From: Naegleria gruberi
Taxonomy: Eukaryota
DNA: 64,000 bases
Reading direction: 5' to 3' (one strand)
Assembly (NCBI GenBank): GCA_000004985.1
Contig: GG738854.1
Part shown: piece after piece, positions 1 to 20,106 of the stretch
Layout of the letters: the number at the start of each line of letters is the position of its first letter
How positions within the stretch are numbered: position 1 is the first letter of the stretch
Translations under genes and position numbers: made by a program
Notes under the pieces: generated by a model
Told to the model about the DNA's origin: nothing
What the model saw: only the letters and a program-made list of their open reading frames with translations
The model's database searches: none

Positions 1-3000
1 NNNNNNNNNNNNNNNNNNNNNNNNNNNNNNNNNNNNNNNNNNNNNNNNNNNNNNNNNNNNNNNNNNNNNNNNNNNNNNNNNNNNNNNNNNNNNNNNNNNN
101 NNNNNNNNNNNNNNNNNNNNNNNNNNNNNNNNNNNNNNNNNNNNNNNNNNNNNNNNNNNNNNNNNNNNNNNNNNNNNNNNNNNNNNNNNNNNNNNNNNNN
201 NNNNNNNNNNNNNNNNNNNNNNNNNNNNNNNNNNNNNNNNNNNNNNNNNNNNNNNNNNNNNNNNNNNNNNNNNNNNNNNNNNNNNNNNNNNNNNNNNNNN
301 NNNNNNNNNNNNNNNNNNNNNNNNNNNNNNNNNNNNNNNNNNNNNNNNNNNNNNNNNNNNNNNNNNNNNNNNNNNNNNNNNNNNNNNNNNNNNNNNNNNN
401 NNNNNNNNNNNNNNNNNNNNNNNNNNNNNNNNNNNNNNNNNNNNNNNNNNNNNNNNNNNNNNNNNNNNNNNNNNNNNNNNNNNNNNNNNNNNNNNNNNNN
501 NNNNNNNNNNNNNNNNNNNNNNNNNNNNNNNNNNNNNNNNNNNNNNNNNNNNNNNNNNNNNNNNNNNNNNNNNNNNNNNNNNNNNNNNNNNNNNNNNNNN
601 NNNNNNNNNNNNNNNNNNNNNNNNNNNNNNNNNNNNNNNNNNNNNNNNNNNNNNNNNNNNNNNNNNNNNNNNNNNNNNNNNNNNNNNNNNNNNNNNNNNN
701 NNNNNNNNNNNNNNNNNNNNNNNNNNNNNNNNNNNNNNNNNNNNNNNNNNNNNNNNNNNNNNNNNNNNNNNNNNNNNNNNNNNNNNNNNNNNNNNNNNNN
801 NNNNNNNNNNNNNNNNNNNNNNNNNNNNNNNNNNNNNNNNNNNNNNNNNNNNNNNNNNNNNNNNNNNNNNNNNNNNNNNNNNNNNNNNNNNNNNNNNNNN
901 NNNNNNNNNNNNNNNNNNNNNNNNNNNNNNNNNNNNNNNNNNNNNNNNNNNNNNNNNNNNNNNNNNNNNNNNNNNNNNNNNNNNNNNNNNNNNNNNNNNN
1001 NNNNNNNNNNNNNNNNNNNNNNNNNNNNNNNNNNNNNNNNNNNNNNNNNNNNNNNNNNNNNNNNNNNNNNNNNNNNNNNNNNNNNNNNNNNNNNNNNNNN
1101 NNNNNNNNNNNNNNNNNNNNNNNNNNNNNNNNNNNNNNNNNNNNNNNNNNNNNNNNNNNNNNNNNNNNNNNNNNNNNNNNNNNNNNNNNNNNNNNNNNNN
1201 NNNNNNNNNNNNNNNNNNNNNNNNNNNNNNNNNNNNNNNNNNNNNNNNNNNNNNNNNNNNNNNNNNNNNNNNNNNNNNNNNNNNNNNNNNNNNNNNNNNN
1301 NNNNNNNNNNNNNNNNNNNNNNNNNNNNNNNNNNNNNNNNNNNNNNNNNNNNNNNNNNNNNNNNNNNNNNNNNNNNNNNNNNNNNNNNNNNNNNNNNNNN
1401 NNNNNNNNNNNNNNNNNNNNNNNNNNNNNNNNNNNNNNNNNNNNNNNNNNNNNNNNNNNNNNNNNNNNNNNNNNNNNNNNNNNNNNNNNNNNNNNNNNNN
1501 NNNNNNNNNNNNNNNNNNNNNNNNNNNNNNNNNNNNNNNNNNNNNNNNNNNNNNNNNNNNNNNNNNNNNNNNNNNNNNNNNNNNNNNNNNNNNNNNNNNN
1601 NNNNNNNNNNNNNNNNNNNNNNNNNNNNNNNNNNNNNNNNNNNNNNNNNNNNNNNNNNNNNNNNNNNNNNNNNNNNNNNNNNNNNNNNNNNNNNNNNNNN
1701 NNNNNNNNNNNNNNNNNNNNNNNNNNNNNNNNNNNNNNNNNNNNNNNNNNNNNNNNNNNNNNNNNNNNNNNNNNNNNNNNNNNNNNNNNNNNNNNNNNNN
1801 NNNNNNNNNNNNNNNNNNNNNNNNNNNNNNNNNNNNNNNNNNNNNNNNNNNNNNNNNNNNNNNNNNNNNNNNNNNNNNNNNNNNNNNNNNNNNNNNNNNN
1901 NNNNNNNNNNNNNNNNNNNNNNNNNNNNNNNNNNNNNNNNNNNNNNNNNNNNNNNNNNNNNNNNNNNNNNNNNNNNNNNNNNNNNNNNNNNNNNNNNNNN
2001 NNNNNNNNNNNNNNNNNNNNNNNNNNNNNNNNNNNNNNNNNNNNNNNNNNNNNNNNNNNNNNNNNNNNNNNNNNNNNNNNNNNNNNNNNNNNNNNNNNNN
2101 NNNNNNNNNNNNNNNNNNNNNNNNNNNNNNNNNNNNNNNNNNNNNNNNNNNNNNNNNNNNNNNNNNNNNNNNNNNNNNNNNNNNNNNNNNNNNNNNNNNN
2201 NNNNNNNNNNNNNNNNNNNNNNNNNNNNNNNNNNNNNNNNNNNNNNNNNNNNNNNNNNNNNNNNNNNNNNNNNNNNNNNNNNNNNNNNNNNNNNNNNNNN
2301 NNNNNNNNNNNNNNNNNNNNNNNNNNNNNNNNNNNNNNNNNNNNNNNNNNNNNNNNNNNNNNNNNNNNNNNNNNNNNNNNNNNNNNNNNNNNNNNNNNNN
2401 NNNNNNNNNNNNNNNNNNNNNNNNNNNNNNNNNNNNNNNNNNNNNNNNNNNNNNNNNNNNNNNNNNNNNNNNNNNNNNNNNNNNNNNNNNNNNNNNNNNN
2501 NNNNNNNNNNNNNNNNNNNNNNNNNNNNNNNNNNNNNNNNNNNNNNNNNNNNNNNNNNNNNNNNNNNNNNNNNNNNNNNNNNNNNNNNNNNNNNNNNNNN
2601 NNNNNNNNNNNNNNNNNNNNNNNNNNNNNNNNNNNNNNNNNNNNNNNNNNNNNNNNNNNNNNNNNNNNNNNNNNNNNNNNNNNNNNNNNNNNNNNNNNNN
2701 NNNNNNNNNNNNNNNNNNNNNNNNNNNNNNNNNNNNNNNNNNNNNNNNNNNNNNNNNNNNNNNNNNNNNNNNNNNNNNNNNNNNNNNNNNNNNNNNNNNN
2801 NNNNNNNNNNNNNNNNNNNNNNNNNNNNNNNNNNNNNNNNNNNNNNNNNNNNNNNNNNNNNNNNNNNNNNNNNNNNNNNNNNNNNNNNNNNNNNNNNNNN
2901 NNNNNNNNNNNNNNNNNNNNNNNNNNNNNNNNNNNNNNNNNNNNNNNNNNNNNNNNNNNNNNNNNNNNNNNNNNNNNNNNNNNNNNNNNNNNNNNNNNNN

Positions 3001-6000
3001 NNNNNNNNNNNNNNNNNNNNNNNNNNNNNNNNNNNNNNNNNNNNNNNNNNNNNNNNNNNNNNNNNNNNNNNNNNNNNNNNNNNNNNNNNNNNNNNNNNNN
3101 NNNNNNNNNNNNNNNNNNNNNNNNNNNNNNNNNNNNNNNNNNNNNNNNNNNNNNNNNNNNNNNNNNNNNNNNNNNNNNNNNNNNNNNNNNNNNNNNNNNN
3201 NNNNNNNNNNNNNNNNNNNNNNNNNNNNNNNNNNNNNNNNNNNNNNNNNNNNNNNNNNNNNNNNNNNNNNNNNNNNNNNNNNNNNNNNNNNNNNNNNNNN
3301 NNNNNNNNNNNNNNNNNNNNNNNNNNNNNNNNNNNNNNNNNNNNNNNNNNNNNNNNNNNNNNNNNNNNNNNNNNNNNNNNNNNNNNNNNNNNNNNNNNNN
3401 NNNNNNNNNNNNNNNNNNNNNNNNNNNNNNNNNNNNNNNNNNNNNNNNNNNNNNNNNNNNNNNNNNNNNNNNNNNNNNNNNNNNNNNNNNNNNNNNNNNN
3501 NNNNNNNNNNNNNNNNNNNNNNNNNNNNNNNNNNNNNNNNNNNNNNNNNNNNNNNNNNNNNNNNNNNNNNNNNNNNNNNNNNNNNNNNNNNNNNNNNNNN
3601 NNNNNNNNNNNNNNNNNNNNNNNNNNNNNNNNNNNNNNNNNNNNNNNNNNNNNNNNNNNNNNNNNNNNNNNNNNNNNNNNNNNNNNNNNNNNNNNNNNNN
3701 NNNNNNNNNNNNNNNNNNNNNNNNNNNNNNNNNNNNNNNNNNNNNNNNNNNNNNNNNNNNNNNNNNNNNNNNNNNNNNNNNNNNNNNNNNNNNNNNNNNN
3801 NNNNNNNNNNNNNNNNNNNNNNNNNNNNNNNNNNNNNNNNNNNNNNNNNNNNNNNNNNNNNNNNNNNNNNNNNNNNNNNNNNNNNNNNNNNNNNNNNNNN
3901 NNNNNNNNNNNNNNNNNNNNNNNNNNNNNNNNNNNNNNNNNNNNNNNNNNNNNNNNNNNNNNNNNNNNNNNNNNNNNNNNNNNNNNNNNNNNNNNNNNNN
4001 NNNNNNNNNNNNNNNNNNNNNNNNNNNNNNNNNNNNNNNNNNNNNNNNNNNNNNNNNNNNNNNNNNNNNNNNNNNNNNNNNNNNNNNNNNNNNNNNNNNN
4101 NNNNNNNNNNNNNNNNNNNNNNNNNNNNNNNNNNNNNNNNNNNNNNNNNNNNNNNNNNNNNNNNNNNNNNNNNNNNNNNNNNNNNNNNNNNNNNNNNNNN
4201 NNNNNNNNNNNNNNNNNNNNNNNNNNNNNNNNNNNNNNNNNNNNNNNNNNNNNNNNNNNNNNNNNNNNNNNNNNNNNNNNNNNNNNNNNNNNNNNNNNNN
4301 NNNNNNNNNNNNNNNNNNNNNNNNNNNNNNNNNNNNNNNNNNNNNNNNNNNNNNNNNNNNNNNNNNNNNNNNNNNNNNNNNNNNNNNNNNNNNNNNNNNN
4401 NNNNNNNNNNNNNNNNNNNNNNNNNNNNNNNNNNNNNNNNNNNNNNNNNNNNNNNNNNNNNNNNNNNNNNNNNNNNNNNNNNNNNNNNNNNNNNNNNNNN
4501 NNNNNNNNNNNNNNNNNNNNNNNNNNNNNNNNNNNNNNNNNNNNNNNNNNNNNNNNNNNNNNNNNNNNNNNNNNNNNNNNNNNNNNNNNNNNNNNNNNNN
4601 NNNNNNNNNNNNNNNNNNNNNNNNNNNNNNNNNNNNNNNNNNNNNNNNNNNNNNNNNNNNNNNNNNNNNNNNNNNNNNNNNNNNNNNNNNNNNNNNNNNN
4701 NNNNNNNNNNNNNNNNNNNNNNNNNNNNNNNNNNNNNNNNNNNNNNNNNNNNNNNNNNNNNNNNNNNNNNNNNNNNNNNNNNNNNNNNNNNNNNNNNNNN
4801 NNNNNNNNNNNNNNNNNNNNNNNNNNNNNNNNNNNNNNNNNNNNNNNNNNNNNNNNNNNNNNNNNNNNNNNNNNNNNNNNNNNNNNNNNNNNNNNNNNNN
4901 NNNNNNNNNNNNNNNNNNNNNNNNNNNNNNNNNNNNNNNNNNNNNNNNNNNNNNNNNNNNNNNNNNNNNNNNNNNNNNNNNNNNNNNNNNNNNNNNNNNN
5001 NNNNNNNNNNNNNNNNNNNNNNNNNNNNNNNNNNNNNNNNNNNNNNNNNNNNNNNNNNNNNNNNNNNNNNNNNNNNNNNNNNNNNNNNNNNNNNNNNNNN
5101 NNNNNNNNNNNNNNNNNNNNNNNNNNNNNNNNNNNNNNNNNNNNNNNNNNNNNNNNNNNNNNNNNNNNNNNNNNNNNNNNNNNNNNNNNNNNNNNNNNNN
5201 NNNNNNNNNNNNNNNNNNNNNNNNNNNNNNNNNNNNNNNNNNNNNNNNNNNNNNNNNNNNNNNNNNNNNNNNNNNNNNNNNNNNNNNNNNNNNNNNNNNN
5301 NNNNNNNNNNNNNNNNNNNNNNNNNNNNNNNNNNNNNNNNNNNNNNNNNNNNNNNNNNNNNNNNNNNNNNNNNNNNNNNNNNNNNNNNNNNNNNNNNNNN
5401 NNNNNNNNNNNNNNNNNNNNNNNNNNNNNNNNNNNNNNNNNNNNNNNNNNNNNNNNNNNNNNNNNNNNNNNNNNNNNNNNNNNNNNNNNNNNNNNNNNNN
5501 NNNNNNNNNNNNNNNNNNNNNNNNNNNNNNNNNNNNNNNNNNNNNNNNNNNNNNNNNNNNNNNNNNNNNNNNNNNNNNNNNNNNNNNNNNNNNNNNNNNN
5601 NNNNNNNNNNNNNNNNNNNNNNNNNNNNNNNNNNNNNNNNNNNNNNNNNNNNNNNNNNNNNNNNNNNNNNNNNNNNNNNNNNNNNNNNNNNNNNNNNNNN
5701 NNNNNNNNNNNNNNNNNNNNNNNNNNNNNNNNNNNNNNNNNNNNNNNNNNNNNNNNNNNNNNNNNNNNNNNNNNNNNNNNNNNNNNNNNNNNNNNNNNNN
5801 NNNNNNNNNNNNNNNNNNNNNNNNNNNNNNNNNNNNNNNNNNNNNNNNNNNNNNNNNNNNNNNNNNNNNNNNNNNNNNNNNNNNNNNNNNNNNNNNNNNN
5901 NNNNNNNNNNNNNNNNNNNNNNNNNNNNNNNNNNNNNNNNNNNNNNNNNNNNNNNNNNNNNNNNNNNNNNNNNNNNNNNNNNNNNNNNNNNNNNNNNNNN

Positions 6001-9000
6001 NNNNNNNNNNNNNNNNNNNNNNNNNNNNNNNNNNNNNNNNNNNNNNNNNNNNNNNNNNNNNNNNNNNNNNNNNNNNNNNNNNNNNNNNNNNNNNNNNNNN
6101 NNNNNNNNNNNNNNNNNNNNNNNNNNNNNNNNNNNNNNNNNNNNNNNNNNNNNNNNNNNNNNNNNNNNNNNNNNNNNNNNNNNNNNNNNNNNNNNNNNNN
6201 NNNNNNNNNNNNNNNNNNNNNNNNNNNNNNNNNNNNNNNNNNNNNNNNNNNNNNNNNNNNNNNNNNNNNNNNNNNNNNNNNNNNNNNNNNNNNNNNNNNN
6301 NNNNNNNNNNNNNNNNNNNNNNNNNNNNNNNNNNNNNNNNNNNNNNNNNNNNNNNNNNNNNNNNNNNNNNNNNNNNNNNNNNNNNNNNNNNNNNNNNNNN
6401 NNNNNNNNNNNNNNNNNNNNNNNNNNNNNNNNNNNNNNNNNNNNNNNNNNNNNNNNNNNNNNNNNNNNNNNNNNNNNNNNNNNNNNNNNNNNNNNNNNNN
6501 NNNNNNNNNNNNNNNNNNNNNNNNNNNNNNNNNNNNNNNNNNNNNNNNNNNNNNNNNNNNNNNNNNNNNNNNNNNNNNNNNNNNNNNNNNNNNNNNNNNN
6601 NNNNNNNNNNNNNNNNNNNNNNNNNNNNNNNNNNNNNNNNNNNNNNNNNNNNNNNNNNNNNNNNNNNNNNNNNNNNNNNNNNNNNNNNNNNNNNNNNNNN
6701 NNNNNNNNNNNNNNNNNNNNNNNNNNNNNNNNNNNNNNNNNNNNNNNNNNNNNNNNNNNNNNNNNNNNNNNNNNNNNNNNNNNNNNNNNNNNNNNNNNNN
6801 NNNNNNNNNNNNNNNNNNNNNNNNNNNNNNNNNNNNNNNNNNNNNNNNNNNNNNNNNNNNNNNNNNNNNNNNNNNNNNNNNNNNNNNNNNNNNNNNNNNN
6901 NNNNNNNNNNNNNNNNNNNNNNNNNNNNNNNNNNNNNNNNNNNNNNNNNNNNNNNNNNNNNNNNNNNNNNNNNNNNNNNNNNNNNNNNNNNNNNNNNNNN
7001 NNNNNNNNNNNNNNNNNNNNNNNNNNNNNNNNNNNNNNNNNNNNNNNNNNNNNNNNNNNNNNNNNNNNNNNNNNNNNNNNNNNNNNNNNNNNNNNNNNNN
7101 NNNNNNNNNNNNNNNNNNNNNNNNNNNNNNNNNNNNNNNNNNNNNNNNNNNNNNNNNNNNNNNNNNNNNNNNNNNNNNNNNNNNNNNNNNNNNNNNNNNN
7201 NNNNNNNNNNNNNNNNNNNNNNNNNNNNNNNNNNNNNNNNNNNNNNNNNNNNNNNNNNNNNNNNNNNNNNNNNNNNNNNNNNNNNNNNNNNNNNNNNNNN
7301 NNNNNNNNNNNNNNNNNNNNNNNNNNNNNNNNNNNNNNNNNNNNNNNNNNNNNNNNNNNNNNNNNNNNNNNNNNNNNNNNNNNNNNNNNNNNNNNNNNNN
7401 NNNNNNNNNNNNNNNNNNNNNNNNNNNNNNNNNNNNNNNNNNNNNNNNNNNNNNNNNNNNNNNNNNNNNNNNNNNNNNNNNNNNNNNNNNNNNNNNNNNN
7501 NNNNNNNNNNNNNNNNNNNNNNNNNNNNNNNNNNNNNNNNNNNNNNNNNNNNNNNNNNNNNNNNNNNNNNNNNNNNNNNNNNNNNNNNNNNNNNNNNNNN
7601 NNNNNNNNNNNNNNNNNNNNNNNNNNNNNNNNNNNNNNNNNNNNNNNNNNNNNNNNNNNNNNNNNNNNNNNNNNNNNNNNNNNNNNNNNNNNNNNNNNNN
7701 NNNNNNNNNNNNNNNNNNNNNNNNNNNNNNNNNNNNNNNNNNNNNNNNNNNNNNNNNNNNNNNNNNNNNNNNNNNNNNNNNNNNNNNNNNNNNNNNNNNN
7801 NNNNNNNNNNNNNNNNNNNNNNNNNNNNNNNNNNNNNNNNNNNNNNNNNNNNNNNNNNNNNNNNNNNNNNNNNNNNNNNNNNNNNNNNNNNNNNNNNNNN
7901 NNNNNNNNNNNNNNNNNNNNNNNNNNNNNNNNNNNNNNNNNNNNNNNNNNNNNNNNNNNNNNNNNNNNNNNNNNNNNNNNNNNNNNNNNNNNNNNNNNNN
8001 NNNNNNNNNNNNNNNNNNNNNNNNNNNNNNNNNNNNNNNNNNNNNNNNNNNNNNNNNNNNNNNNNNNNNNNNNNNNNNNNNNNNNNNNNNNNNNNNNNNN
8101 NNNNNNNNNNNNNNNNNNNNNNNNNNNNNNNNNNNNNNNNNNNNNNNNNNNNNNNNNNNNNNNNNNNNNNNNNNNNNNNNNNNNNNNNNNNNNNNNNNNN
8201 NNNNNNNNNNNNNNNNNNNNNNNNNNNNNNNNNNNNNNNNNNNNNNNNNNNNNNNNNNNNNNNNNNNNNNNNNNNNNNNNNNNNNNNNNNNNNNNNNNNN
8301 NNNNNNNNNNNNNNNNNNNNNNNNNNNNNNNNNNNNNNNNNNNNNNNNNNNNNNNNNNNNNNNNNNNNNNNNNNNNNNNNNNNNNNNNNNNNNNNNNNNN
8401 NNNNNNNNNNNNNNNNNNNNNNNNNNNNNNNNNNNNNNNNNNNNNNNNNNNNNNNNNNNNNNNNNNNNNNNNNNNNNNNNNNNNNNNNNNNNNNNNNNNN
8501 NNNNNNNNNNNNNNNNNNNNNNNNNNNNNNNNNNNNNNNNNNNNNNNNNNNNNNNNNNNNNNNNNNNNNNNNNNNNNNNNNNNNNNNNNNNNNNNNNNNN
8601 NNNNNNNNNNNNNNNNNNNNNNNNNNNNNNNNNNNNNNNNNNNNNNNNNNNNNNNNNNNNNNNNNNNNNNNNNNNNNNNNNNNNNNNNNNNNNNNNNNNN
8701 NNNNNNNNNNNNNNNNNNNNNNNNNNNNNNNNNNNNNNNNNNNNNNNNNNNNNNNNNNNNNNNNNNNNNNNNNNNNNNNNNNNNNNNNNNNNNNNNNNNN
8801 NNNNNNNNNNNNNNNNNNNNNNNNNNNNNNNNNNNNNNNNNNNNNNNNNNNNNNNNNNNNNNNNNNNNNNNNNNNNNNNNNNNNNNNNNNNNNNNNNNNN
8901 NNNNNNNNNNNNNNNNNNNNNNNNNNNNNNNNNNNNNNNNNNNNNNNNNNNNNNNNNNNNNNNNNNNNNNNNNNNNNNNNNNNNNNNNNNNNNNNNNNNN

Positions 9001-12000
9001 NNNNNNNNNNNNNNNNNNNNNNNNNNNNNNNNNNNNNNNNNNNNNNNNNNNNNNNNNNNNNNNNNNNNNNNNNNNNNNNNNNNNNNNNNNNNNNNNNNNN
9101 NNNNNNNNNNNNNNNNNNNNNNNNNNNNNNNNNNNNNNNNNNNNNNNNNNNNNNNNNNNNNNNNNNNNNNNNNNNNNNNNNNNNNNNNNNNNNNNNNNNN
9201 NNNNNNNNNNNNNNNNNNNNNNNNNNNNNNNNNNNNNNNNNNNNNNNNNNNNNNNNNNNNNNNNNNNNNNNNNNNNNNNNNNNNNNNNNNNNNNNNNNNN
9301 NNNNNNNNNNNNNNNNNNNNNNNNNNNNNNNNNNNNNNNNNNNNNNNNNNNNNNNNNNNNNNNNNNNNNNNNNNNNNNNNNNNNNNNNNNNNNNNNNNNN
9401 NNNNNNNNNNNNNNNNNNNNNNNNNNNNNNNNNNNNNNNNNNNNNNNNNNNNNNNNNNNNNNNNNNNNNNNNNNNNNNNNNNNNNNNNNNNNNNNNNNNN
9501 NNNNNNNNNNNNNNNNNNNNNNNNNNNNNNNNNNNNNNNNNNNNNNNNNNNNNNNNNNNNNNNNNNNNNNNNNNNNNNNNNNNNNNNNNNNNNNNNNNNN
9601 NNNNNNNNNNNNNNNNNNNNNNNNNNNNNNNNNNNNNNNNNNNNNNNNNNNNNNNNNNNNNNNNNNNNNNNNNNNNNNNNNNNNNNNNNNNNNNNNNNNN
9701 NNNNNNNNNNNNNNNNNNNNNNNNNNNNNNNNNNNNNNNNNNNNNNNNNNNNNNNNNNNNNNNNNNNNNNNNNNNNNNNNNNNNNNNNNNNNNNNNNNNN
9801 NNNNNNNNNNNNNNNNNNNNNNNNNNNNNNNNNNNNNNNNNNNNNNNNNNNNNNNNNNNNNNNNNNNNNNNNNNNNNNNNNNNNNNNNNNNNNNNNNNNN
9901 NNNNNNNNNNNNNNNNNNNNNNNNNNNNNNNNNNNNNNNNNNNNNNNNNNNNNNNNNNNNNNNNNNNNNNNNNNNNNNNNNNNNNNNNNNNNNNNNNNNN
10001 NNNNNNNNNNNNNNNNNNNNNNNNNNNNNNNNNNNNNNNNNNNNNNNNNNNNNNNNNNNNNNNNNNNNNNNNNNNNNNNNNNNNNNNNNNNNNNNNNNNN
10101 NNNNNNNNNNNNNNNNNNNNNNNNNNNNNNNNNNNNNNNNNNNNNNNNNNNNNNNNNNNNNNNNNNNNNNNNNNNNNNNNNNNNNNNNNNNNNNNNNNNN
10201 NNNNNNNNNNNNNNNNNNNNNNNNNNNNNNNNNNNNNNNNNNNNNNNNNNNNNNNNNNNNNNNNNNNNNNNNNNNNNNNNNNNNNNNNNNNNNNNNNNNN
10301 NNNNNNNNNNNNNNNNNNNNNNNNNNNNNNNNNNNNNNNNNNNNNNNNNNNNNNNNNNNNNNNNNNNNNNNNNNNNNNNNNNNNNNNNNNNNNNNNNNNN
10401 NNNNNNNNNNNNNNNNNNNNNNNNNNNNNNNNNNNNNNNNNNNNNNNNNNNNNNNNNNNNNNNNNNNNNNNNNNNNNNNNNNNNNNNNNNNNNNNNNNNN
10501 NNNNNNNNNNNNNNNNNNNNNNNNNNNNNNNNNNNNNNNNNNNNNNNNNNNNNNNNNNNNNNNNNNNNNNNNNNNNNNNNNNNNNNNNNNNNNNNNNNNN
10601 NNNNNNNNNNNNNNNNNNNNNNNNNNNNNNNNNNNNNNNNNNNNNNNNNNNNNNNNNNNNNNNNNNNNNNNNNNNNNNNNNNNNNNNNNNNNNNNNNNNN
10701 NNNNNNNNNNNNNNNNNNNNNNNNNNNNNNNNNNNNNNNNNNNNNNNNNNNNNNNNNNNNNNNNNNNNNNNNNNNNNNNNNNNNNNNNNNNNNNNNNNNN
10801 NNNNNNNNNNNNNNNNNNNNNNNNNNNNNNNNNNNNNNNNNNNNNNNNNNNNNNNNNNNNNNNNNNNNNNNNNNNNNNNNNNNNNNNNNNNNNNNNNNNN
10901 NNNNNNNNNNNNNNNNNNNNNNNNNNNNNNNNNNNNNNNNNNNNNNNNNNNNNNNNNNNNNNNNNNNNNNNNNNNNNNNNNNNNNNNNNNNNNNNNNNNN
11001 NNNNNNNNNNNNNNNNNNNNNNNNNNNNNNNNNNNNNNNNNNNNNNNNNNNNNNNNNNNNNNNNNNNNNNNNNNNNNNNNNNNNNNNNNNNNNNNNNNNN
11101 NNNNNNNNNNNNNNNNNNNNNNNNNNNNNNNNNNNNNNNNNNNNNNNNNNNNNNNNNNNNNNNNNNNNNNNNNNNNNNNNNNNNNNNNNNNNNNNNNNNN
11201 NNNNNNNNNNNNNNNNNNNNNNNNNNNNNNNNNNNNNNNNNNNNNNNNNNNNNNNNNNNNNNNNNNNNNNNNNNNNNNNNNNNNNNNNNNNNNNNNNNNN
11301 NNNNNNNNNNNNNNNNNNNNNNNNNNNNNNNNNNNNNNNNNNNNNNNNNNNNNNNNNNNNNNNNNNNNNNNNNNNNNNNNNNNNNNNNNNNNNNNNNNNN
11401 NNNNNNNNNNNNNNNNNNNNNNNNNNNNNNNNNNNNNNNNNNNNNNNNNNNNNNNNNNNNNNNNNNNNNNNNNNNNNNNNNNNNNNNNNNNNNNNNNNNN
11501 NNNNNNNNNNNNNNNNNNNNNNNNNNNNNNNNNNNNNNNNNNNNNNNNNNNNNNNNNNNNNNNNNNNNNNNNNNNNNNNNNNNNNNNNNNNNNNNNNNNN
11601 NNNNNNNNNNNNNNNNNNNNNNNNNNNNNNNNNNNNNNNNNNNNNNNNNNNNNNNNNNNNNNNNNNNNNNNNNNNNNNNNNNNNNNNNNNNNNNNNNNNN
11701 NNNNNNNNNNNNNNNNNNNNNNNNNNNNNNNNNNNNNNNNNNNNNNNNNNNNNNNNNNNNNNNNNNNNNNNNNNNNNNNNNNNNNNNNNNNNNNNNNNNN
11801 NNNNNNNNNNNNNNNNNNNNNNNNNNNNNNNNNNNNNNNNNNNNNNNNNNNNNNNNNNNNNNNNNNNNNNNNNNNNNNNNNNNNNNNNNNNNNNNNNNNN
11901 NNNNNNNNNNNNNNNNNNNNNNNNNNNNNNNNNNNNNNNNNNNNNNNNNNNNNNNNNNNNNNNNNNNNNNNNNNNNNNNNNNNNNNNNNNNNNNNNNNNN

Positions 12001-12464
12001 NNNNNNNNNNNNNNNNNNNNNNNNNNNNNNNNNNNNNNNNNNNNNNNNNNNNNNNNNNNNNNNNNNNNNNNNNNNNNNNNNNNNNNNNNNNNNNNNNNNN
12101 NNNNNNNNNNNNNNNNNNNNNNNNNNNNNNNNNNNNNNNNNNNNNNNNNNNNNNNNNNNNNNNNNNNNNNNNNNNNNNNNNNNNNNNNNNNNNNNNNNNN
12201 NNNNNNNNNNNNNNNNNNNNNNNNNNNNNNNNNNNNNNNNNNNNNNNNNNNNNNNNNNNNNNNNNNNNNNNNNNNNNNNNNNNNNNNNNNNNNNNNNNNN
12301 NNNNNNNNNNNNNNNNNNNNNNNNNNNNNNNNNNNNNNNNNNNNNNNNNNNNNNNNNNNNNNNNNNNNNNNNNNNNNNNNNNNNNNNNNNNNNNNNNNNN
12401 NNNNNNNNNNNNNNNNNNNNNNNNNNNNNNNNNNNNNNNNNNNNNNNNNNNNNNNNNNNNNNNN
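1..12464. other. Assembly gap (run of N)
   Basis: Uninterrupted n characters. No sequence is available, so nothing can be annotated here. Confidence 0.99.
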
Positions 12465-12581
12465 TCTTGATCGCAGATTGGAGAAAAATCATCTCCGATA
12501 GGAACATTGGAGATTTTATTTGTTGTCATTCATCACAATACAACATCACCAACTGTTGATCAATTTTAAAATCAAATAAAA

Positions 12582-14015
12582 ATGTCTGACTCATCAACTA
12601 GTAATGATAATAGTAATAATAATAAATTAGAAATTGAATTTAAACAAGCACAAGACTTTATTCAAAATGCACCAGCAGAAAAAGAACCATCCAATGAACA
12701 AAAATTACAATTTTATGCTTTTTATAAACAAGCAACACAAGGACAAGTTAGTGGTATGTTATTATTATATTGTATTCTTGTAGTATTAATATTAATAATA
12801 ATAATTAAAATTTTATTCATTGATCATGATTATCATCAACTGTCATCACACACATATTAAAATATATTATTTAAAATATATTATTAAAATGATGATAAAA
12901 AGGAAAGAGACCAGGTGCATTTGATATTATTAATAGAGCAAAATATGATGCTTGGAAAAAACTTGGTTCTCTAACTAAAGAACAAGCAATGAAATCATAT
13001 ATTACTACTCTTGAACAATCTTCACCTAATTGGAGAAGTTATTTTACTACAAATAATACAAATACAAATAATAACAATTCAATTACAATTAATCCCTACA
13101 GTGGACCGTGGTGGTAATGATAATAATAATAATTCTAATAATACAACATCAACAACAACAACAATTGGTATTATAAATAATGTAAATGATGAAATCTTTA
13201 AAAAAGATTTATTACGTGGTAAAGTAATAATTGTAACAGGAGGAGGTAGTGGTATATGTTATGGTATAACACAATATTTACAATTATATGGAGCACATAC
13301 AGCTATAATATCACGTACATTTGATAAATTAGAAAAGGCTTCAAAAGAAATTATGAAAATAGCCAATAATAATACAATATGTTTACCTGTTTCAGCTGAT
13401 GTTAGAGATTATAAAGCATTATCTAATGCATTTGATAAAGTATTGGAAAGATTTGGTAGAATTGATGTATTAATTAATGGAAGTGCTGGTAATTTTCTAT
13501 GTCCTGCTTCACATTTAACACCAGGTGGATTTAAAACTGTGATGGAAATTGATACATTTGGAACATTTAATGCCTCTAAATTAGCCTATGATAAATATAT
13601 GAAATTGAATGGTGGTGGTAATATTATAAATCTATCCATGACATTACATAATACTGCAACTATAATGCAAGTACATGCAGGATGTGCTAAATCTGCCATT
13701 GATACAATGACTAAACATTTAGCAGTTGAATGGGGATTAGATCAAGTACGTGTTAATTCAATTCAAATTGGTCCTATTGAAGGTACTGAAGGATTTTCAA
13801 GATTACTTCCACAAGATGAATTGAAAAGATATAAGGAAATGATACCACTTCAAAGATTTGGTCTACCAATTGATATTGCTAGAATGGTACTATTTTTAAT
13901 ATCAGATGCTGCCTCTTATGTTACTGGTGCTATTATACCTGTTGAAGGTGCTTCACAATTTACTACAAGTAATATTCATGGTTATCCAAATGCTTTGAAA
14001 ATGTCTAAATTGTAA
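12582..14015 (+). CDS. ACBP-domain protein fused to peroxisomal 2,4-dienoyl-CoA reductase (SDR family) with a C-terminal SKL PTS1. Proposed exons 12582..12753, 12903..13037, 13102..14015.
   Basis: Exon 1-2 carry the ACBP signature (FKQAQDFIQNAPAEKEPSNEQKLQFYAFYKQATQGQVSG|KRPGAFDIINRAKYDAWKKLG...AMKSYI) across a GTATGT...AG intron (12754..12902, phase 1). The downstream frame-0 ORF (…DEIFKKDLLRGKVIIVTGGGSGIC…GNFLCPA…VHAGCAKSAIDTMTKHLAVEWG…YVTGAIIPVEGA…SKL) aligns with DECR2-type reductases throughout. It has no in-frame ATG before the Rossmann motif, so it needs an upstream exon. A phase-1 splice (donor GTTATT at 13038, acceptor ccctacag at 13101) creates ...SPNWR-M-DRGGND... in frame. The second donor is non-consensus, so the fusion itself is less certain than the two domains. 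Confidence 0.6.
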
Positions 14016-14188
14016 ATTATTATTAAATAAATTATATAAATTATATGATTATCATTAAATATATAAATTATAATCATGATGTTTGGTAACATGAATAAAT
14101 TGAATTTTTGAAAAAAAAATAACAACACTTCATCACTACTTAAGATTTTCATCATCAAACATTTCATCAACATTATATTTCTATCGGA

Positions 14189-15078
14189 NNNNNNNNNNNN
14201 NNNNNNNNNNNNNNNNNNNNNNNNNNNNNNNNNNNNNNNNNNNNNNNNNNNNNNNNNNNNNNNNNNNNNNNNNNNNNNNNNNNNNNNNNNNNNNNNNNNN
14301 NNNNNNNNNNNNNNNNNNNNNNNNNNNNNNNNNNNNNNNNNNNNNNNNNNNNNNNNNNNNNNNNNNNNNNNNNNNNNNNNNNNNNNNNNNNNNNNNNNNN
14401 NNNNNNNNNNNNNNNNNNNNNNNNNNNNNNNNNNNNNNNNNNNNNNNNNNNNNNNNNNNNNNNNNNNNNNNNNNNNNNNNNNNNNNNNNNNNNNNNNNNN
14501 NNNNNNNNNNNNNNNNNNNNNNNNNNNNNNNNNNNNNNNNNNNNNNNNNNNNNNNNNNNNNNNNNNNNNNNNNNNNNNNNNNNNNNNNNNNNNNNNNNNN
14601 NNNNNNNNNNNNNNNNNNNNNNNNNNNNNNNNNNNNNNNNNNNNNNNNNNNNNNNNNNNNNNNNNNNNNNNNNNNNNNNNNNNNNNNNNNNNNNNNNNNN
14701 NNNNNNNNNNNNNNNNNNNNNNNNNNNNNNNNNNNNNNNNNNNNNNNNNNNNNNNNNNNNNNNNNNNNNNNNNNNNNNNNNNNNNNNNNNNNNNNNNNNN
14801 NNNNNNNNNNNNNNNNNNNNNNNNNNNNNNNNNNNNNNNNNNNNNNNNNNNNNNNNNNNNNNNNNNNNNNNNNNNNNNNNNNNNNNNNNNNNNNNNNNNN
14901 NNNNNNNNNNNNNNNNNNNNNNNNNNNNNNNNNNNNNNNNNNNNNNNNNNNNNNNNNNNNNNNNNNNNNNNNNNNNNNNNNNNNNNNNNNNNNNNNNNNN
15001 NNNNNNNNNNNNNNNNNNNNNNNNNNNNNNNNNNNNNNNNNNNNNNNNNNNNNNNNNNNNNNNNNNNNNNNNNNNNNN
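14189..15078. other. Assembly gap (run of N)
   Basis: Uninterrupted n characters. The 13982..15094 minus 'ORF' in the track is an artefact of this gap. Confidence 0.99.
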
Positions 15079-15265: not shown

Positions 15266-17479
15266 TTATACAATTTCATCATATTTCTTATTCATCCATG
15301 GATGTTTTAATGCTTGTCGTACATCCAATCTATCTAGAGGATCAATTTGTAAACATTGTCTTATAAAATCTACAAATTCTTCATCTTGACAATTATCTAA
15401 TTTTTCTCGAATATCTTGATTATAATCTGGTATCAATAATTCCTCATAGACATTATCATTTGGTCCAATTTGACCAACTCCTGATGGTGGAATTGTTTTA
15501 CCTGTATCTTTATCTACATATCTAAATAATACATATTCAGTTCTTCCATTAATTTTAACCTTTTTGAAAAAGTCTTTAACAAATCTTCCTCTTTGTAATT
15601 GATGTAATTTGAATGGTCCACATAAAGATAATATCTTGGCTAACATTGTCTGTATCGAATGATTGTAAAACAATACTTTGCCTGTAAACAATTCAGCTAA
15701 AATACAACCAATAGACCAAATATCAATCTTTTCATCATAATCACTTCCAATGACAACTTCAGGTGCTCTATATGTTCTTGATTGAGCATATAATGGTAAA
15801 TTATCCCATTTGAAACATGATGAACCAAAATCAATAATCTTAACTTGACATCTACTATAGGATTTGATTAATATATTTTCAGGTTTCAAATCACAATGAA
15901 TCAAATTAAGTGAATGAACAAATTGTAATGCAGTTAATACTATTTGATGATAATATCATGATTGAATTATTAGATGTTAGATGATGACCAATGAAAAACA
16001 ACTTACATTGTTGAGTAACTTTTTGAAGTCTTGGAAGATTAAAATACAATTCATCACCACTATCTCTATTGTAAACATAAAATTCATACAAGTTATCTCT
16101 TAACAATTCACAAACAATGAACAGATGTTCCTTATAATAGAAAAAGTCATGTAACTTGATAACATGGAAAGCATCTGGATCACCCATACTATTAATAAAT
16201 CTTAGTAATTTGATTTCATCTAAACTTTGATCAAAGAAATCCTTATCATTCTTAATAATCTTAATGCAAACGTTTTGATTGGTTCTTAAATCCAAACATT
16301 GAATTGCTCTGCTAAAAGTTGCACTTCCTAGATATTCAACAACTTGATATCTTTCAGCAATAATTGAATCAACTTCAATTTTGAATTCATTTGTTTCTTC
16401 GAATCCAGTTTTAAATGTTTCTCTTATAATTGGAAGATAAATAGTTTCATATTCAACTGGTGGTCTCCATTTTGTTCTTCTATCTACAACTTCTGGTGCT
16501 TCTTCTTCAATATAAGATGGAACACAATTTTGTAAAACATCTGTTTGAGAAAAATCAGTTAATCTTGAATATCCTTCATCATCACTATCACTTGCATAAT
16601 CATCATCCTTGGCATCTTTATCTGGTTTTTCCTTCTTTGTTTCTGCTGATTTTGGTTTTTCTTTAGATTCCTTAGGGTATTTATGAGCTTCAACTTGTTG
16701 TTCAAGTTCTCTCAAATCATTTTCAACATTCTTTTCAAATGTTTCATATAAATCCTCCGAAGTGAAAGGATTTGATAGTTCTACTGGTTCATCACCACTT
16801 TCATACATGTGAGCAAATTCTTGTAATTCTTTCATCAATGAGGCACTATCTGGTCTTTCATATTCATCTTCCTCAAAAGATTGTTTTGAAGTTCTAGACT
16901 GTCCTGTAAGAACTCTCTTTGCACTATTTGTTGGAGTAATTCTATGATTGTAGTGTTTTGTATCTGGTACATGATGTTGATGGTTGTAGAAATCGGAAAC
17001 TACACTTTGTACAATATCATTAACAATTTCGCATATATCATTGTATTCAGATTCAGAAACAATATTATTTACGAGGGAATATGATTTTAAAGAGTGTTGA
17101 GGAGAAGTTTGAATAACCTCTGTTGGTTCTGCTGATGTTTCCATTGTTTTAACTGTTCAATAAAATTCCGTTAATGTATTTTCAATAACTATTAGGATCA
17201 TCAACAACACTTACTACTTGATTTTAATTCTTCCATCAATTTTTCAGCTGTTTGATTTAATTTGTTCTCCCTAAGGAAGTTCAAAAAGATACCTAACATT
17301 TCTTGTTCATCATTCAACTTCTTTTCATCTAAATCATATTGTTTTAGGAATGAACTATTTGAATCTTGTGTTGTATTTAAAATATCGTCCTCTTCATAGT
17401 CTTCATATTCAGAGTCTGAATCATCTGCATTATAAGGCTCTAATTGTTGTACCTCATTAAGTGCGCTGTTGGAATACAT
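15266..17479 (-). CDS. DYRK-family (CMGC) protein kinase. The kinase exons are 16007..17152 and 15266..15939, with a proposed 5' exon 17215..17479 encoding a LisH-like motif.
   Basis: The kinase domain is split by a 67-bp GTAAGT..AG intron (15940..16006, phase 1): ...YQVVEYLGSATFSRAIQC...VCIKIIKNDKDFFDQSLDEIKLL...LPRLQKVTQQ|LLTALQFVHSLNLIHCDLKPENILIK...IIDFGSSCF...YAQSRTYRAPEV. An ATG at 17142..17144 opens the long ORF. The upstream small ORF (ATG 17477..17479, …NDEQEMLGIFLNFLRENKLNQTAEKLMEELKSS) ends exactly at a GTAAGT donor (17214). A ttgaacag acceptor (17153/17154) sits 9 nt before the kinase ATG. Splicing at phase 1 joins it in frame (…ELKSS-I-KTMETSAEPTEV…). Confidence 0.75.
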
Positions 17480-18022: not shown

Positions 18023-20106
18023 ATGTCACAACTATTAGAAAACCTCAAAGATTTATTTCCCTCCATTGACATTGAAGTAATAGAATCAGTTATTGATCAA
18101 GTTGATAATGATGAAGAGGCTGCCATTGAATTACTAGTACAAATTAATGAAGATGATGAAGATCTTGATGAAATTAACAATGTTCCGAACAATACTTTTA
18201 ATGACAAAACTAATGATGATATCAATAATGATGATGATTTATTAGAACAAGAAACTTTTGATGATCATGAATTTTCCAATCAAGTATCATCATCGTCTAC
18301 AAAAAACAAGCCTTCCTCCTCTACTACTACTACTACTTCCACTTCTAAAAGTAGTAGTAGTAAAAAATTATATCAAATACTTGATGAAGAAGGAATATTA
18401 AATGAAATTAATAATACAATGAATCAAGTTTTAAATATATTACAAATTAATAATAATAATAGTAATTTTAAATTAGAAATGATATTAAAAAACTATAAAT
18501 GGAATGTTGAAAATATTATTAGAGATTATGGTGATATTGGATTGGATGGTATTTTAAAAAAAATTGGTTTATTAAATAATTTAAATACTACTATAAATAG
18601 TAATAATAATAATAATAATAATATTACAACAACAACAATAACAACAATATGTGAATCATGTTATGAAGATAATATAGAATTAATTAAAAATATAAATTGT
18701 GAACATTCATTATGTGAATCATGTTGGAGAAATTATATAGAATCATCAATTTTACAAAATAATGGAACAAGTATTGAAAGTATTAAATGTCCATCCTATG
18801 AATGTAATTGTCTATTATTAGATGAATTTATTTTATCATTTATAACAAGTAAATATGAACATTTTCTATTAAAAAGTAAAATTAATTCATTCATGACAAA
18901 TTCACATCGAATGAAATGGTGTTCAAATAATTGTAAATTTGCAATTAAAAAGGAATGTGATGAAAATTTATATTATTGTAAATGTAAATGTGATAGAGAA
19001 TTTTGTTTTCATTGTGATCAAGATCCACATTATCCAGGTATGTTTATTTTTATTTTATTTTAATATATTTAAACTATTTAAACTATTTAAAATATTATTG
19101 TAAACTATTTAACATTACAATAACAACAATACAATAACATTACAATAACATTACAAAAATATAACAAAACATAATAATAGCAACATGTGAAATGATGAAA
19201 AGATTTATATCATTTACAAAAGAACATGAATCTAATTTAGAATATATTAAATCAACATGTCAACAATGTCCATCATGTAAAGTTTATGTTCATCGTATTA
19301 GTGGATGTGATAGTATGGTATGTGGATATTGTGGTACTAGATTTTGTTATATTTGTGGACAATCATCACATGGATATCAATCTATTTGTGTTGGACAATC
19401 TACTACTCTATTAGGAAGTAAAAAAGTTAGTGAATTTGATTTATATGTAGAAGAAGCACATGCTAGATTTAATTATAAATATAAATTATATACTAATTGG
19501 TTACAATCTCCAAATACACATTCTAATTTAATTTTTTATAATTTGGAAAATTCAGCACTTTTTGAATTTGGATATTTAAAAAATGATTTTAAAATATTTT
19601 ATTCTGCATTAAATTTAATAATTAGAACTAGAAGATTATTAAGATCATTATGTGTATTTGCATTTGTTTCATTTGGATTTGATAAATTATTAATGGAAAG
19701 TTTATTAAAAAATATTAAAAATACAAAAAAAAATAAGAAAAATAATAATACAAATATGGAACAAGATTTAACTTTATTAAAAACATTTGGATATTTATTT
19801 GATATGAATTATGAAAGATTGGAAAAATTTGTTGATCAATTACTTTCCATTTTAAGAAATTTTACACAAACACCTCAAGAAGAATTAGAAGAACAAGAAG
19901 AATTAGAAAAATTAAATTCTACTAATAATGGAAATATTAAAAATTATAGTAACATGTTTGAATTTGGAAATTCTTTATTTACACAAGAAAAACATTTAAA
20001 ATTTCATAATTTAAATTCACAAATTAAAAATCAAATGGAATTAATTGTAAAACAAACTGAAAATATTATTGATATGATTAAATCAATGGAAATGAAAACT
20101 ATTTAA
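18023..20106 (+). CDS. RBR (RING-between-RING, Ariadne-type) E3 ubiquitin ligase with an N-terminal CUE/UBA-like motif. Exons 18023..19037 and 19181..20106.
   Basis: The N-terminus is LKDLFPSIDIEVIESVIDQVDNDEEAAIELLV (CUE-like). RING1 is CESCYED..CEHSLCESCW and the IBR is KCPSYECN…CSNNCKFAIKKECDE…CKCKCDREFCFHCD. An intron (GTATGT at 19038 to aatag at 19180, 143 bp, phase 1) is followed by RING2/Rcat (CQQCPSCKVYVHRISGCDSMVCGYCGTRFCYICGQ). A helical Ariadne-like C-terminal domain follows. Confidence 0.8.
19064..19180 (+). repeat. Short tandem/simple repeats inside the RBR gene intron (aaactattta x3; acaataacattac x2)
   Basis: The repeats are visible directly in the intron sequence. They are low-complexity AT-rich intronic repeats. 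Confidence 0.6.

What the first reader, a model, noticed from the sequence alone, without database searches (positions are those of the whole stretch)
12582..14015. ACBP domain spliced onto a peroxisomal 2,4-dienoyl-CoA reductase (PTS1 SKL)
The DECR2-like SDR ORF has no ATG of its own before the GGGSGIC Rossmann motif. It sits 100 bp downstream of a two-exon ACBP domain on the same strand. An in-frame phase-1 splice (donor at 13038, acceptor ccctacag ending 13101) joins them through a poly-N/T linker. The result would be an acyl-CoA-binding module fused to a peroxisomal beta-oxidation auxiliary enzyme. This is analogous to ECI2/PECI (ACBP + enoyl-CoA isomerase + SKL) but with a different catalytic partner.
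Basis: partly seen in the sequence, partly recalled or inferred. Interest (0 to 1): 0.6.

Follow-up and report, generated by a model that had tools for sequence, protein, structure and literature searches.

The report
ACBP–dienoyl-CoA reductase fusion gene, Naegleria
This Naegleria gruberi gene really does encode an acyl-CoA-binding domain fused to a peroxisomal 2,4-dienoyl-CoA reductase, as in related amoebae, but the two halves are most likely joined by continuous coding sequence broken by a one-base draft-assembly error, not by the proposed intron.

Summary
The window is a gapped Naegleria gruberi scaffold. The gene lies in an isolated 1,724-bp contig (12465-14188).

- a two-exon ACBP domain;
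- a DECR2-like SDR ORF with no ATG of its own;
- a C-terminal SKL;
- a 64-nt GT..AG interval (13038-13101) that would join the two frames.

The fusion is real. Willaertia magna, a Naegleria-like metagenome contig and several other eukaryotic contigs encode ACBP–linker–DECR2–PTS1. In each case the junction is one uninterrupted ORF.

The proposed intron is probably wrong, for four reasons:
- Read in the ACBP frame, it gives WR-SYF…NPYSG, which matches the homologues' linkers.
- It has the same codon periodicity as the downstream linker. The true intron 1 has none.
- Its donor is GTTATT. All nine verified Naegleria/Willaertia donors have a purine at +3.
- 96% of shuffled sequences also offer a bridging GT..AG pair.

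The frame break is confined to 13103-13115. It is best explained by a one-base insertion in a low-coverage contig.

The public N. gruberi model is a 5'-partial, reductase-only protein. The N. lovaniensis model hides a similar frame break behind a forced intron.

The architecture parallels metazoan ECI2 (ACBD2). I found no paper that describes it. Interest is moderate.

The parts
12582..12753 (+). Exon 1. Start codon, N/S-rich N-terminus and the first half of the ACBP domain (…KLQFYAFYKQATQGQVSG). It ends in phase 1.
   Evidence: Pfam ACBP. The N-terminus aligns with N. lovaniensis and W. magna. There is an in-frame stop at 12567-12569 upstream.
12754..12902 (+). Intron 1, 149 nt, GTATGT…AAAAAG, phase 1. 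The position is conserved in N. lovaniensis, the Naegleria-like contig L003 and W. magna.
   Evidence: It has no codon periodicity.
12903..13036 (+). Exon 2, first part (pos%3=2 frame). Second half of the ACBP domain (KRPGAFDIINRAKYDAWKKLG…YITTLEQSSPNWR).
13037..13105 (+). Continuation of the ACBP frame: SYFTTNNTNTNNNNSITINPYSG. It contains the conserved post-ACBP helix (WR-S-Y-F) and the first half of the N/T-rich linker.
   Evidence: Homologues read WRDYM, WRDFF, WKEFF and WRDWI, and NPTSG or FPTSG. Alignment score p = 0.0005-0.014 against shuffles. Codon-position bias A 17/22 at position 1 and T 14/22 at position 3. The AF2 model of the W. magna orthologue puts WRDYMNKKQ in a helix, residues 90-100.
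13103..13115 (+). Interval that must contain the +1 frame break (GGACCGTGGTGGT). The ACBP frame hits TAA at 13115-13117. The SDR frame continues …DRGGNDNN. This is most likely one spurious extra base in the draft assembly.
   Evidence: The bounds are set by the last homologous residues in frame 2 (NPYSG) and by the first stop in frame 2.
13116..13187 (+). Second half of the linker, in the SDR frame (NDNNNNSNNTTSTTTTIGIINNVN). Low complexity and presumably disordered.
   Evidence: N/T/S 18 of 24 residues, with the same codon bias as 13037-13102. The W. magna linker has pLDDT below 50.
13188..14015 (+). DECR2-type short-chain dehydrogenase/reductase domain. It contains the Rossmann motif TGGGSGIC (13236-13259), the atypical VHAGCAK active-site stretch, the PTS1 SKL (14004-14012) and the TAA stop (14013-14015). 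It is identical to the public 'predicted protein, partial [Naegleria gruberi]'.
   Evidence: P0001, 100% identity. (human DECR2 4FC6, E 1.7e-72, residues 19-274). (adh_short_C2, 148 bits).

Best explanation
The 1.4-kb locus is one Naegleria gruberi gene for a peroxisomal matrix protein of about 427 residues. It has an N-terminal four-helix acyl-CoA-binding (ACBP) domain with a short extra helix, a disordered N/T/S-rich linker of about 45 residues, a DECR2-type NADPH-dependent 2,4-dienoyl-CoA reductase domain, and a C-terminal PTS1 (SKL).

The gene has one real intron, intron 1 (12754-12902). Exon 2 should run uninterrupted from 12903 to the stop at 14015, as it does in the orthologues. The +1 frame break at 13103-13115 is most likely a one-base insertion error in a short, low-coverage contig of the draft assembly. 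A lesion in the sequenced strain is less likely.

Inferred mechanism: the protein is imported folded through the PTS1 receptor. The tethered ACBP domain captures long-chain (poly)unsaturated acyl-CoA esters and raises their local concentration at the reductase active site. It may alternatively serve as an intraperoxisomal acyl-CoA buffer. The reductase then converts 2,4-dienoyl-CoA intermediates to 3-enoyl-CoA, so that beta-oxidation of fatty acids with double bonds at even positions can proceed.

Shown here: the domain identities, the conservation of the fusion, the conserved PTS1, and the coding character of the putative intron. Inferred: the sequencing-error origin of the break, and the channelling role of the ACBP domain.
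For: Organism and public model: P0001 'predicted protein, partial [Naegleria gruberi]' is 100% identical to 13188-14012 and starts at DEIFKKD.

The fusion is conserved:
- N. lovaniensis P0002, W. magna P0003 and the uncultured P0004-P0008, P0010 and P0044 all carry PF00887 plus SDR families.
- In W. magna, the second half of ACBP, the linker and the SDR are one 360-codon exon.
- In the Naegleria-like contig L003 the junction is one ORF. L003 has a PseudoU_synth_2 gene downstream, as N. lovaniensis does.
- P0007 and P0044 are complete intronless ORFs on eukaryote-like contigs.
- C-termini are SKL, SKM or SRL in 8 of 10 fusions.

Domain identity:
- ACBP 95.5 bits, adh_short_C2 148 bits.
- Best solved relative is human peroxisomal DECR2 (4FC6), E 1.7e-72, against 5e-41 for PECR and 6.5e-40 for DECR1. 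The VHAGxAK stretch is conserved.

The putative intron is coding:
- Frame-2 reading SYF…ITINPYSG matches WRDFF…EANPTSG (L003), WKEFF…AFPTSG (N. lovaniensis), TTNPTS (P0005) and WRDYM (W. magna).
- Shuffle p = 0.0005-0.014.
- N/T/S content is 14/20 in that frame, against 2/21 and 3/21 in the other two frames.
- Codon-position bias is identical to the downstream linker and absent from intron 1.

Context for an assembly error:
- The gene sits in a 1,724-bp island between runs of N.
- The N. lovaniensis assembly has an independent frame break nearby: CCAAATGG, where L003 has CCAAAATGG.
Against: - No independent N. gruberi read, EST or transcript could be examined, so the one-base error is inferred and not observed.
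- Nothing in the databases searched contains a full-length N. gruberi product.
- The interval 13038-13101 does have canonical GT and AG ends, a good-looking acceptor (TCCCTACAG) and a length (64 nt) close to a verified 67-nt N. gruberi intron. Splicing is therefore not excluded.
- The linker similarity is short and lies in low-complexity sequence. Against residue shuffles it reaches only p about 0.01-0.03, and only for two homologues.
- The channelling role of the ACBP domain rests on analogy with ECI2 (PMC7057175). No experiment on this protein supports it.
Confidence: 0.7

Rival explanations
1. Same fusion protein, but the two frames are joined by splicing a 64-nt phase-1 intron (13038-13101). 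This gives a 406-residue product with the junction …SSPNWR-M-DRGGND….
For: - Canonical GT and AG at the stated coordinates.
- It is the only GT..AG pair that restores the frame without deleting the conserved EIFKKD or ACBP core.
- The 64-nt length is close to the verified 67-nt kinase intron.
- The acceptor is pyrimidine-rich: TCCCTACAG.
Against: - The donor is GTTATT. All 9 verified donors in N. gruberi, N. lovaniensis, L003 and W. magna have A or G at +3, and 8 of 9 have G at +5.
- Orthologues have no intron at this site.
- Splicing would remove S-Y-F, which aligns with a conserved [DEQS]-[YFW]-[MFIA] that is helical in the AF2 model. It would also remove NPYSG, which aligns with NPTSG.
- The interval has coding-type periodicity in phase with the upstream exon.
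- A bridging GT..AG is expected by chance in 96% of shuffles.
Confidence: 0.12
2. The frame break is genuine in the genome and is not spliced out. One possibility is that the gene is a recently disabled pseudogene. The other is that ribosomes make free ACBP (127 aa, stopping at the TAA at 13115) and occasionally shift +1 at UGG-UAA-U to make the ACBP–DECR2 fusion. One gene would then supply both a soluble ACBP and the tethered enzyme.
For: - The sequence as assembled has TGG TAA T. A +1 slip at the stop codon enters the SDR frame exactly, at AAT GAT AAT.
- The SDR ORF is intact for 300 codons downstream in a 27% G+C sequence. If the break is real, it is therefore either recent or tolerated.
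Against: - No orthologue has a stop or a frame change at this site.
- The N. lovaniensis break is elsewhere and shifts in the opposite direction, so nothing is conserved.
- To my knowledge, programmed +1 frameshifting has not been described in Naegleria.
- The low-coverage contig context favours an error.
Confidence: 0.08
3. There are two independent genes: a small ACBP gene that ends at 13117, and a separate reductase gene whose true first exon or start lies elsewhere, for example in the flanking assembly gaps.
For: - The public N. gruberi annotation treats the reductase as a 5'-partial stand-alone model.
- Acrasis kona P0011 and many other organisms have stand-alone DECR2.
Against: - The two ORFs overlap by about 100 nt, which leaves no room for a terminator and promoter.
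- The SDR frame stays open and linker-like for 177 nt upstream of the domain.
- The closest relatives all have the fusion.
Confidence: 0.03

Closest known systems
Predicted ACBP–DECR2 proteins of Naegleria lovaniensis (C9374_002044, P0002) and Willaertia magna (ABK040_001804, P0003)
   Same: These are orthologues, 70% and 64% identical over 96-98% of the conceptual product. They have the same order (ACBP, linker, DECR2, PTS1 as SKM or SKL) and the same phase-1 intron inside the ACBP domain.
   Different: - Their linkers differ in length and sequence.
- W. magna has a continuous exon 2.
- The N. lovaniensis model carries extra predicted introns. One of them (56 nt, L001 3522-3577) appears forced by an assembly frame break.
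- N. gruberi's public model lacks the ACBP half altogether.
- They are automatic annotations. I found no paper that describes them.
Metazoan ECI2 / ACBD2 / PECI (ACBP + Δ3,Δ2-enoyl-CoA isomerase + PTS1)
   Same: An N-terminal ACBP domain is fused to a peroxisomal auxiliary enzyme of unsaturated fatty-acid beta-oxidation, with a C-terminal PTS1. In ECI2 the ACB domain is dispensable for catalysis, but it raises activity and is thought to channel acyl-CoA (review PMC7057175).
   Different: - The catalytic partner is an SDR-fold reductase and not a crotonase-fold isomerase.
- The review states that ECI2 is found only in metazoans.
- This is an independent (convergent) fusion in Heterolobosea.
- There is no N-terminal mitochondrial presequence here.
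Human peroxisomal 2,4-dienoyl-CoA reductase DECR2 (PDB 4FC6/4FC7)
   Same: It is the best solved relative of the SDR half (E 1.7e-72, aligned over 258 residues). It shares the TGGGSGI, AGNFLCPA and QVHAGxAKxAxDxMTxHLAVEWG motifs, and it carries a PTS1.
   Different: Human DECR2 is a single-domain protein of 292 aa, with no ACBP domain or linker.
Small cytosolic ACBP / ACBD1 (PF00887)
   Same: The full-length four-helix ACBP domain matches at 95.5 bits. The Y-x-x-x-K-Q-A, K-Y-D-A-W and Y residues are conserved across the fusions.
   Different: Here the domain is the N-terminal module of a peroxisomal enzyme. It carries a conserved extra helix (SP-x-W-R-x-[YFW]) after helix 4.

Membership tests
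Peroxisomal 2,4-dienoyl-CoA reductase (DECR2 / Sps19 type SDR) | The sequence is closer to DECR2 than to any other SDR subfamily. | tested here: met
   4FC6 scores E 1.7e-72 (247 bits). The next best are 3IMF 1e-46, PECR 5e-41 and DECR1 6.5e-40. In one search the sources name the top stand-alone hits peroxisomal 2,4-dienoyl-CoA reductase.
Peroxisomal 2,4-dienoyl-CoA reductase (DECR2 / Sps19 type SDR) | Rossmann NADPH-binding motif TGGxSGIG, and the DECR2-type active-site stretch that lacks the classical YxxxK tyrosine (QVHAGxAK). | tested here: met
   TGGGSGIC lies at 13236-13259. MQVHAGCAKSAIDTMTKHLAVEWG aligns with the human [24 protein letters not shown]. These columns are invariant across the 10 fusions. 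The catalytic roles of individual residues are from my own knowledge of the 4FC6 study and were not tested.
Peroxisomal 2,4-dienoyl-CoA reductase (DECR2 / Sps19 type SDR) | C-terminal PTS1 tripeptide. | tested here: met
   SKL-stop at 14004-14015. Homologues end in SKL, SKM or SRL.
Peroxisomal 2,4-dienoyl-CoA reductase (DECR2 / Sps19 type SDR) | NADPH-dependent reduction of 2,4-dienoyl-CoA to 3-enoyl-CoA, and peroxisomal location. | not testable with these tools
   This needs an enzyme assay and localisation.
ACBP / ACBD (PF00887) | Full-length match to the ACBP profile above the curated cut-off. | tested here: met
   95.5 bits against a cut-off of 28.3, covering profile positions 3-75 of 76, after removal of intron 1.
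ACBP / ACBD (PF00887) | Conserved acyl-CoA-contacting residues: Y and K of YKQA, K of the K-x-D-A-W helix, and Y of helix 4. | tested here: met
   Y45, K49, Q50, A51, K71, D73, A74, W75 and Y90 are invariant or nearly invariant across the fusions. The assignment of these residues as ligand contacts is from my own knowledge of bovine ACBP.
ACBP / ACBD (PF00887) | High-affinity binding of long-chain acyl-CoA. | not testable with these tools
   This needs ITC or a Lipidex assay.
ECI2 / ACBD2 | ACBP domain fused to a crotonase-fold Δ3,Δ2-enoyl-CoA isomerase. | tested here: not met
   the C-terminal domain is adh_short/adh_short_C2, with no ECH family hit. The gene is therefore analogous in design but is not a member.
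   GTTATT, against 9 of 9 donors with a purine at +3 and 8 of 9 with G at +5. The reference set is small.
   The frame-2 translation aligns with orthologue linkers. A17/22 at codon position 1 and T14/22 at position 3 match the downstream coding linker. Intron 1 shows no such bias.
   No N. gruberi transcript data were reachable. No full-length N. gruberi product is present in the protein collection.

The most novel reading that the evidence does not exclude
The frame break at 13103-13115 is genuine, and the gene makes two products from one transcript. One is a free 127-residue ACBP that ends at the TAA at 13115. The other is the ACBP–DECR2–SKL fusion, made either by regulated removal of the weak 64-nt intron or by a +1 ribosomal shift at UGG-UAA-U. 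The ratio of soluble acyl-CoA carrier to tethered peroxisomal enzyme would then be set post-transcriptionally.
Probability: 0.08. Interest if true: 0.6.

Novelty: new variant of a known kind. Interest (0 to 1): 0.35.

Why it matters
The only ACBD–enzyme fusion discussed in the ACBD review I read (PMC7057175) is metazoan ECI2. [quoted passage not shown]

A second, independent fusion of ACBP to a different auxiliary enzyme of the same pathway, in heterolobosean amoebae, argues for a recurrent selective advantage. The advantage would be tethering an acyl-CoA binder to the enzymes that handle unsaturated acyl-CoA inside peroxisomes. It also gives a simple system for testing the channelling-versus-reservoir question left open for ECI2.

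There are practical consequences too. The public N. gruberi model is truncated to the reductase half. The N. lovaniensis model contains a forced intron. Comparative inventories of peroxisomal proteins in Naegleria therefore miss or misdescribe this protein. One example is the PMC9512073 supplement: its acyl-CoA-binding-protein row shows a single SKM entry next to '-' entries, and I take those columns to be the Naegleria species.

Tried and rejected
- I searched with the ACBP half alone, hoping to find N. fowleri or a separate N. gruberi ACBP model. It returned only 26 small, mostly bacterial-type ACBPs and none of the known fusions, so it was uninformative.
- A metagenome scan with the corrected protein returned 80 loci at or below 63% identity. 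None was a close Naegleria relative, so it gave no help in locating the break.
- The exhaustive profile search showed that only a handful of 50%-identity clusters hold full fusions (P0006, P0008, P0004). Other top hits were multi-ACBP repeat proteins without an SDR.
- The AlphaFold2 model of the W. magna orthologue, from a 7-sequence alignment, reached mean pLDDT 66. I used it only for the ACBP-extension helix and the disordered linker. It was too weak for a fold search, so I ran none.
- I considered an exact-sequence look-up of candidate corrected products and did not run it. Any full-length N. gruberi protein would already have appeared at about 100% identity.
- Other GT..AG pairs (13101-13206 and similar) were rejected. 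They delete the conserved [EV]-[IV]-F-x-x-D motif or the ACBP core.
- Three literature searches found no description of an ACBP–dienoyl-CoA reductase fusion.
Full report
**What the window is.** Only 12465-14188 (1,724 bp, 26.7% G+C) and 15079-64000 are real sequence. The rest is N. The reductase part is 100% identical to 'predicted protein, partial [Naegleria gruberi]' (P0001, 275 aa, starting DEIFKKD). The window is therefore a gapped N. gruberi scaffold, and the gene sits in a small isolated contig.

**Checking the observation.**
- An ATG at 12582 follows an in-frame stop at 12567. It opens an ORF that is interrupted by a 149-nt GTATGT…AAAAAG intron (12754-12902, phase 1).
- After this intron is removed, the product matches Pfam ACBP over 73 of 76 profile positions at 95.5 bits.
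- The SDR frame is open from 13011 to 14015. It has no ATG before TGGGSGIC (13236-13259) and ends MSKL-TAA.
- GT at 13038 and AG at 13101 bound 64 nt. Removing them gives a 406-codon ORF.
The two ORFs overlap (13011-13117) and are not 100 bp apart. A frame-restoring GT..AG pair is not remarkable: 96% of shuffles of 12990-13190 contain at least one.

**Is the fusion real?** Yes.
- A search with the conceptual product found proteins carrying both PF00887 and SDR families in N. lovaniensis (P0002, 70% identity, 98% coverage) and Willaertia magna (P0003, 64%, 96%). It also found them in seven uncultured sequences: P0004-P0008, P0010 and P0044.
- In the W. magna genome the only intron is the one inside ACBP, at the same codon as N. 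gruberi intron 1. The second half of ACBP, the linker and the reductase are a single 360-codon exon.
- A JGI metagenome contig (L003) carries a pseudouridine-synthase gene immediately downstream, as N. lovaniensis does. It also has the conserved intron 1, followed by one ORF across the junction.
- P0007 and P0044 are complete intronless fusion ORFs on contigs with eukaryote-type neighbours.
- The C-terminus is SKL, SKM or SRL in eight of ten fusions.
- An exhaustive profile search of 1.84 billion representatives placed only three fusion clusters (P0006, P0008, P0004) at the top. The other very high scorers were multi-ACBP repeat proteins without an SDR. The architecture is therefore real but phylogenetically narrow.
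- Acrasis kona has a stand-alone enzyme (P0011).

**What the halves are.** The SDR half is closest to human peroxisomal 2,4-dienoyl-CoA reductase DECR2 (4FC6, E 1.7e-72), well ahead of PECR and mitochondrial DECR1. It keeps the DECR2-type QVHAGxAK stretch. The ACBP half keeps the YKQA, KYDAW and helix-4 Y positions across all fusions.

**Is the proposed intron real?** Probably not. Four lines of evidence point the same way.
1. *Conservation.* After the conserved SP-x-W-[RK], every homologue continues [DEQ]-[YFW]-[MFIA]: WRDYM, WRDFF, WKEFF, WRDWI, WRQWI, WRQWM. N. gruberi reads WR-S-Y-F only if translation continues through the proposed donor. The spliced product would read WR-M-D-R. In the AF2 model of the W. 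magna orthologue this segment is a helix (residues 90-100, pLDDT about 76), followed by a disordered linker (101-133, pLDDT below 50). Further on, the frame-2 reading S-I-T-I-N-P-Y-S-G aligns with S-T-V-E-A-N-P-T-S-G (L003), A-F-P-T-S-G (N. lovaniensis) and V-T-T-N-P-T-S (P0005). For L003 the alignment score is reached by 0.05% of nucleotide shuffles and 1.4% of residue shuffles. For P0005 the figures are 0.15% and 3%.
2. *Codon structure.* In the ACBP frame, 13037-13102 has A at codon position 1 in 17 of 22 codons and T at position 3 in 14 of 22. N/T/S make up 14 of 20 residues. This is the same pattern as the downstream linker in the SDR frame (A 19/24, T 15/24, N/T/S 18/24). The genuine intron 1 has no positional bias. 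The other two frames of the interval give I/L/Q-rich sequence or stop-ridden sequence. This looks like one low-complexity coding linker whose phase slips by +1 in the middle.
3. *Splice signal.* Nine donors verified by homology all have a purine at +3, and eight have G at +5. The nine are N. gruberi ACBP intron 1, a kinase intron at 15939-16005(-), an RBR-ligase intron at 19039-19181, W. magna intron 1, four N. lovaniensis introns and L003 intron 1. The candidate is GTTATT. The sample is small but unanimous.
4. *Orthologues.* None has an intron here.

**Where the break is, and what it is.** Frame 2 is homologous to the orthologues through NPYSG (ending at 13105) and stops at the TAA at 13115-13117. 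Frame 0 is linker-like from 13116. The +1 shift therefore lies within GGACCGTGGTGGT (13103-13115). Deleting one C, for example, gives …NPYSG-R-GGNDNNNN…, to be compared with …NPTSG-K-KK… in L003. Three things make a one-base insertion error the most economical explanation:
- The contig is a 1.7-kb island between gaps.
- The break lies in a G/C-rich patch inside very A/T-rich sequence.
- The SDR ORF is otherwise intact.

I could not check this against reads, because no independent N. gruberi sequence is in the collections searched.

The N. lovaniensis assembly has its own break a little upstream, in the opposite direction: CCAAATGG where L003 has CCAAAATGG. Its published model hides the break behind a 56-nt 'intron' that deletes the conserved EVFRPD. 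This shows how easily a gene predictor, or a human reader, repairs a frame error with a fortuitous GT..AG.

**How it most likely works (inference).** The protein is imported folded through its PTS1. The reductase converts 2,4-dienoyl-CoA to 3-enoyl-CoA during peroxisomal beta-oxidation of unsaturated fatty acids. The ACBP module sits on a flexible tether of about 45 residues. It binds long-chain acyl-CoA and either feeds the active site or buffers acyl-CoA in the matrix. The only experimental guide is ECI2. There, deleting the ACB domain lowers but does not abolish activity, and both channelling and reservoir roles have been proposed (PMC7057175).

**Comparison with what is known.** The design matches ECI2/ACBD2, but the catalytic fold differs (SDR, not crotonase). 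The lineage also differs: the review says ECI2 is metazoan-only. This is therefore a convergent fusion and not a family member. The ACBD review does not mention any reductase fusion, and three literature searches found none. A supplementary table of PMC9512073 has an acyl-CoA-binding-protein row with a single SKM entry next to '-' entries. I take those columns to be the Naegleria species and the SKM entry to be the N. lovaniensis fusion, listed without comment. The architecture already exists as automatic database models for two relatives. What is new here is the complete N. gruberi gene and the recognition of the architecture.

**Verdict.**
- Novelty: a new variant of a known kind, namely ACBP fused to a peroxisomal auxiliary beta-oxidation enzyme.
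- Interest is moderate (0.35).
- Estimated probabilities: about 0.95 that the fusion is real, about 0.75 that the break is an assembly or strain indel, and about 0.12 that the 64-nt intron is real.

Noticed in passing
L001 3480-3580 (N. lovaniensis PYSW02000014.1): The published N. lovaniensis model (P0002) has a frame break at TCTCCAAATGG, where the Naegleria-like contig L003 reads TCTCCAAAATGG. The model bridges the break with a 56-nt 'intron' (3522-3577) that deletes the conserved …STVEAFPTSGKSNPFGNEVFR. This is probably a homopolymer error in the assembly plus a forced gene model.
   Followed up: partly
L003 3975-4000 (JGI metagenome 3300002220, MLSBCLC_10256576): The Naegleria-like contig lacks about 20 codons of the SDR C-terminal part (PIDIARMVLFLVSDAASYV) and changes frame at LQRFGQ|TGAIIPVEG. 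The cause may be a metagenome assembly artefact, a deletion or a decaying copy.
   Followed up: no
window 1-12464 and 14189-15078: There are long runs of N on both sides of the 1,724-bp contig that holds the gene. In N. lovaniensis and L003 a PseudoU_synth_2 gene follows the fusion gene directly. In N. gruberi the next readable sequence is a kinase on the opposite strand. The syntenic neighbour is either in the gap or has been rearranged.
   Followed up: no
window 15266-17144 (-): A protein kinase gene is split by a 67-nt intron (GTAAGT…CTAAC…AAATAG, about 15939-16005). The Pkinase profile is divided between the two ORFs. I used it as a reference intron.
   Followed up: partly
window 18023-20106 (+): A CUE-domain plus IBR (RBR-type E3 ligase-like) gene is split by a 143-nt intron (GTATGT…AATAG, about 19039-19181). 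I used it as a reference intron.
   Followed up: partly
P0147, P0148, P0150, P0153 (hits; not in the window): These proteins are made of 5-9 tandem ACBP domains. P0147 has 9 repeats in 1,045 aa. P0153 has five ACBP domains fused to an FAD-linked oxidase (FAD_binding_4 + FAD-oxidase_C). That is another ACBP–enzyme fusion, of unknown organism.
   Followed up: no
P0010, P0044 (L005): The two most divergent ACBP–DECR2 fusions end in SYL, not a canonical PTS1, and have TGGATGIC in place of TGGGSGIC. They may come from a different lineage, or the protein may be targeted differently.
   Followed up: no
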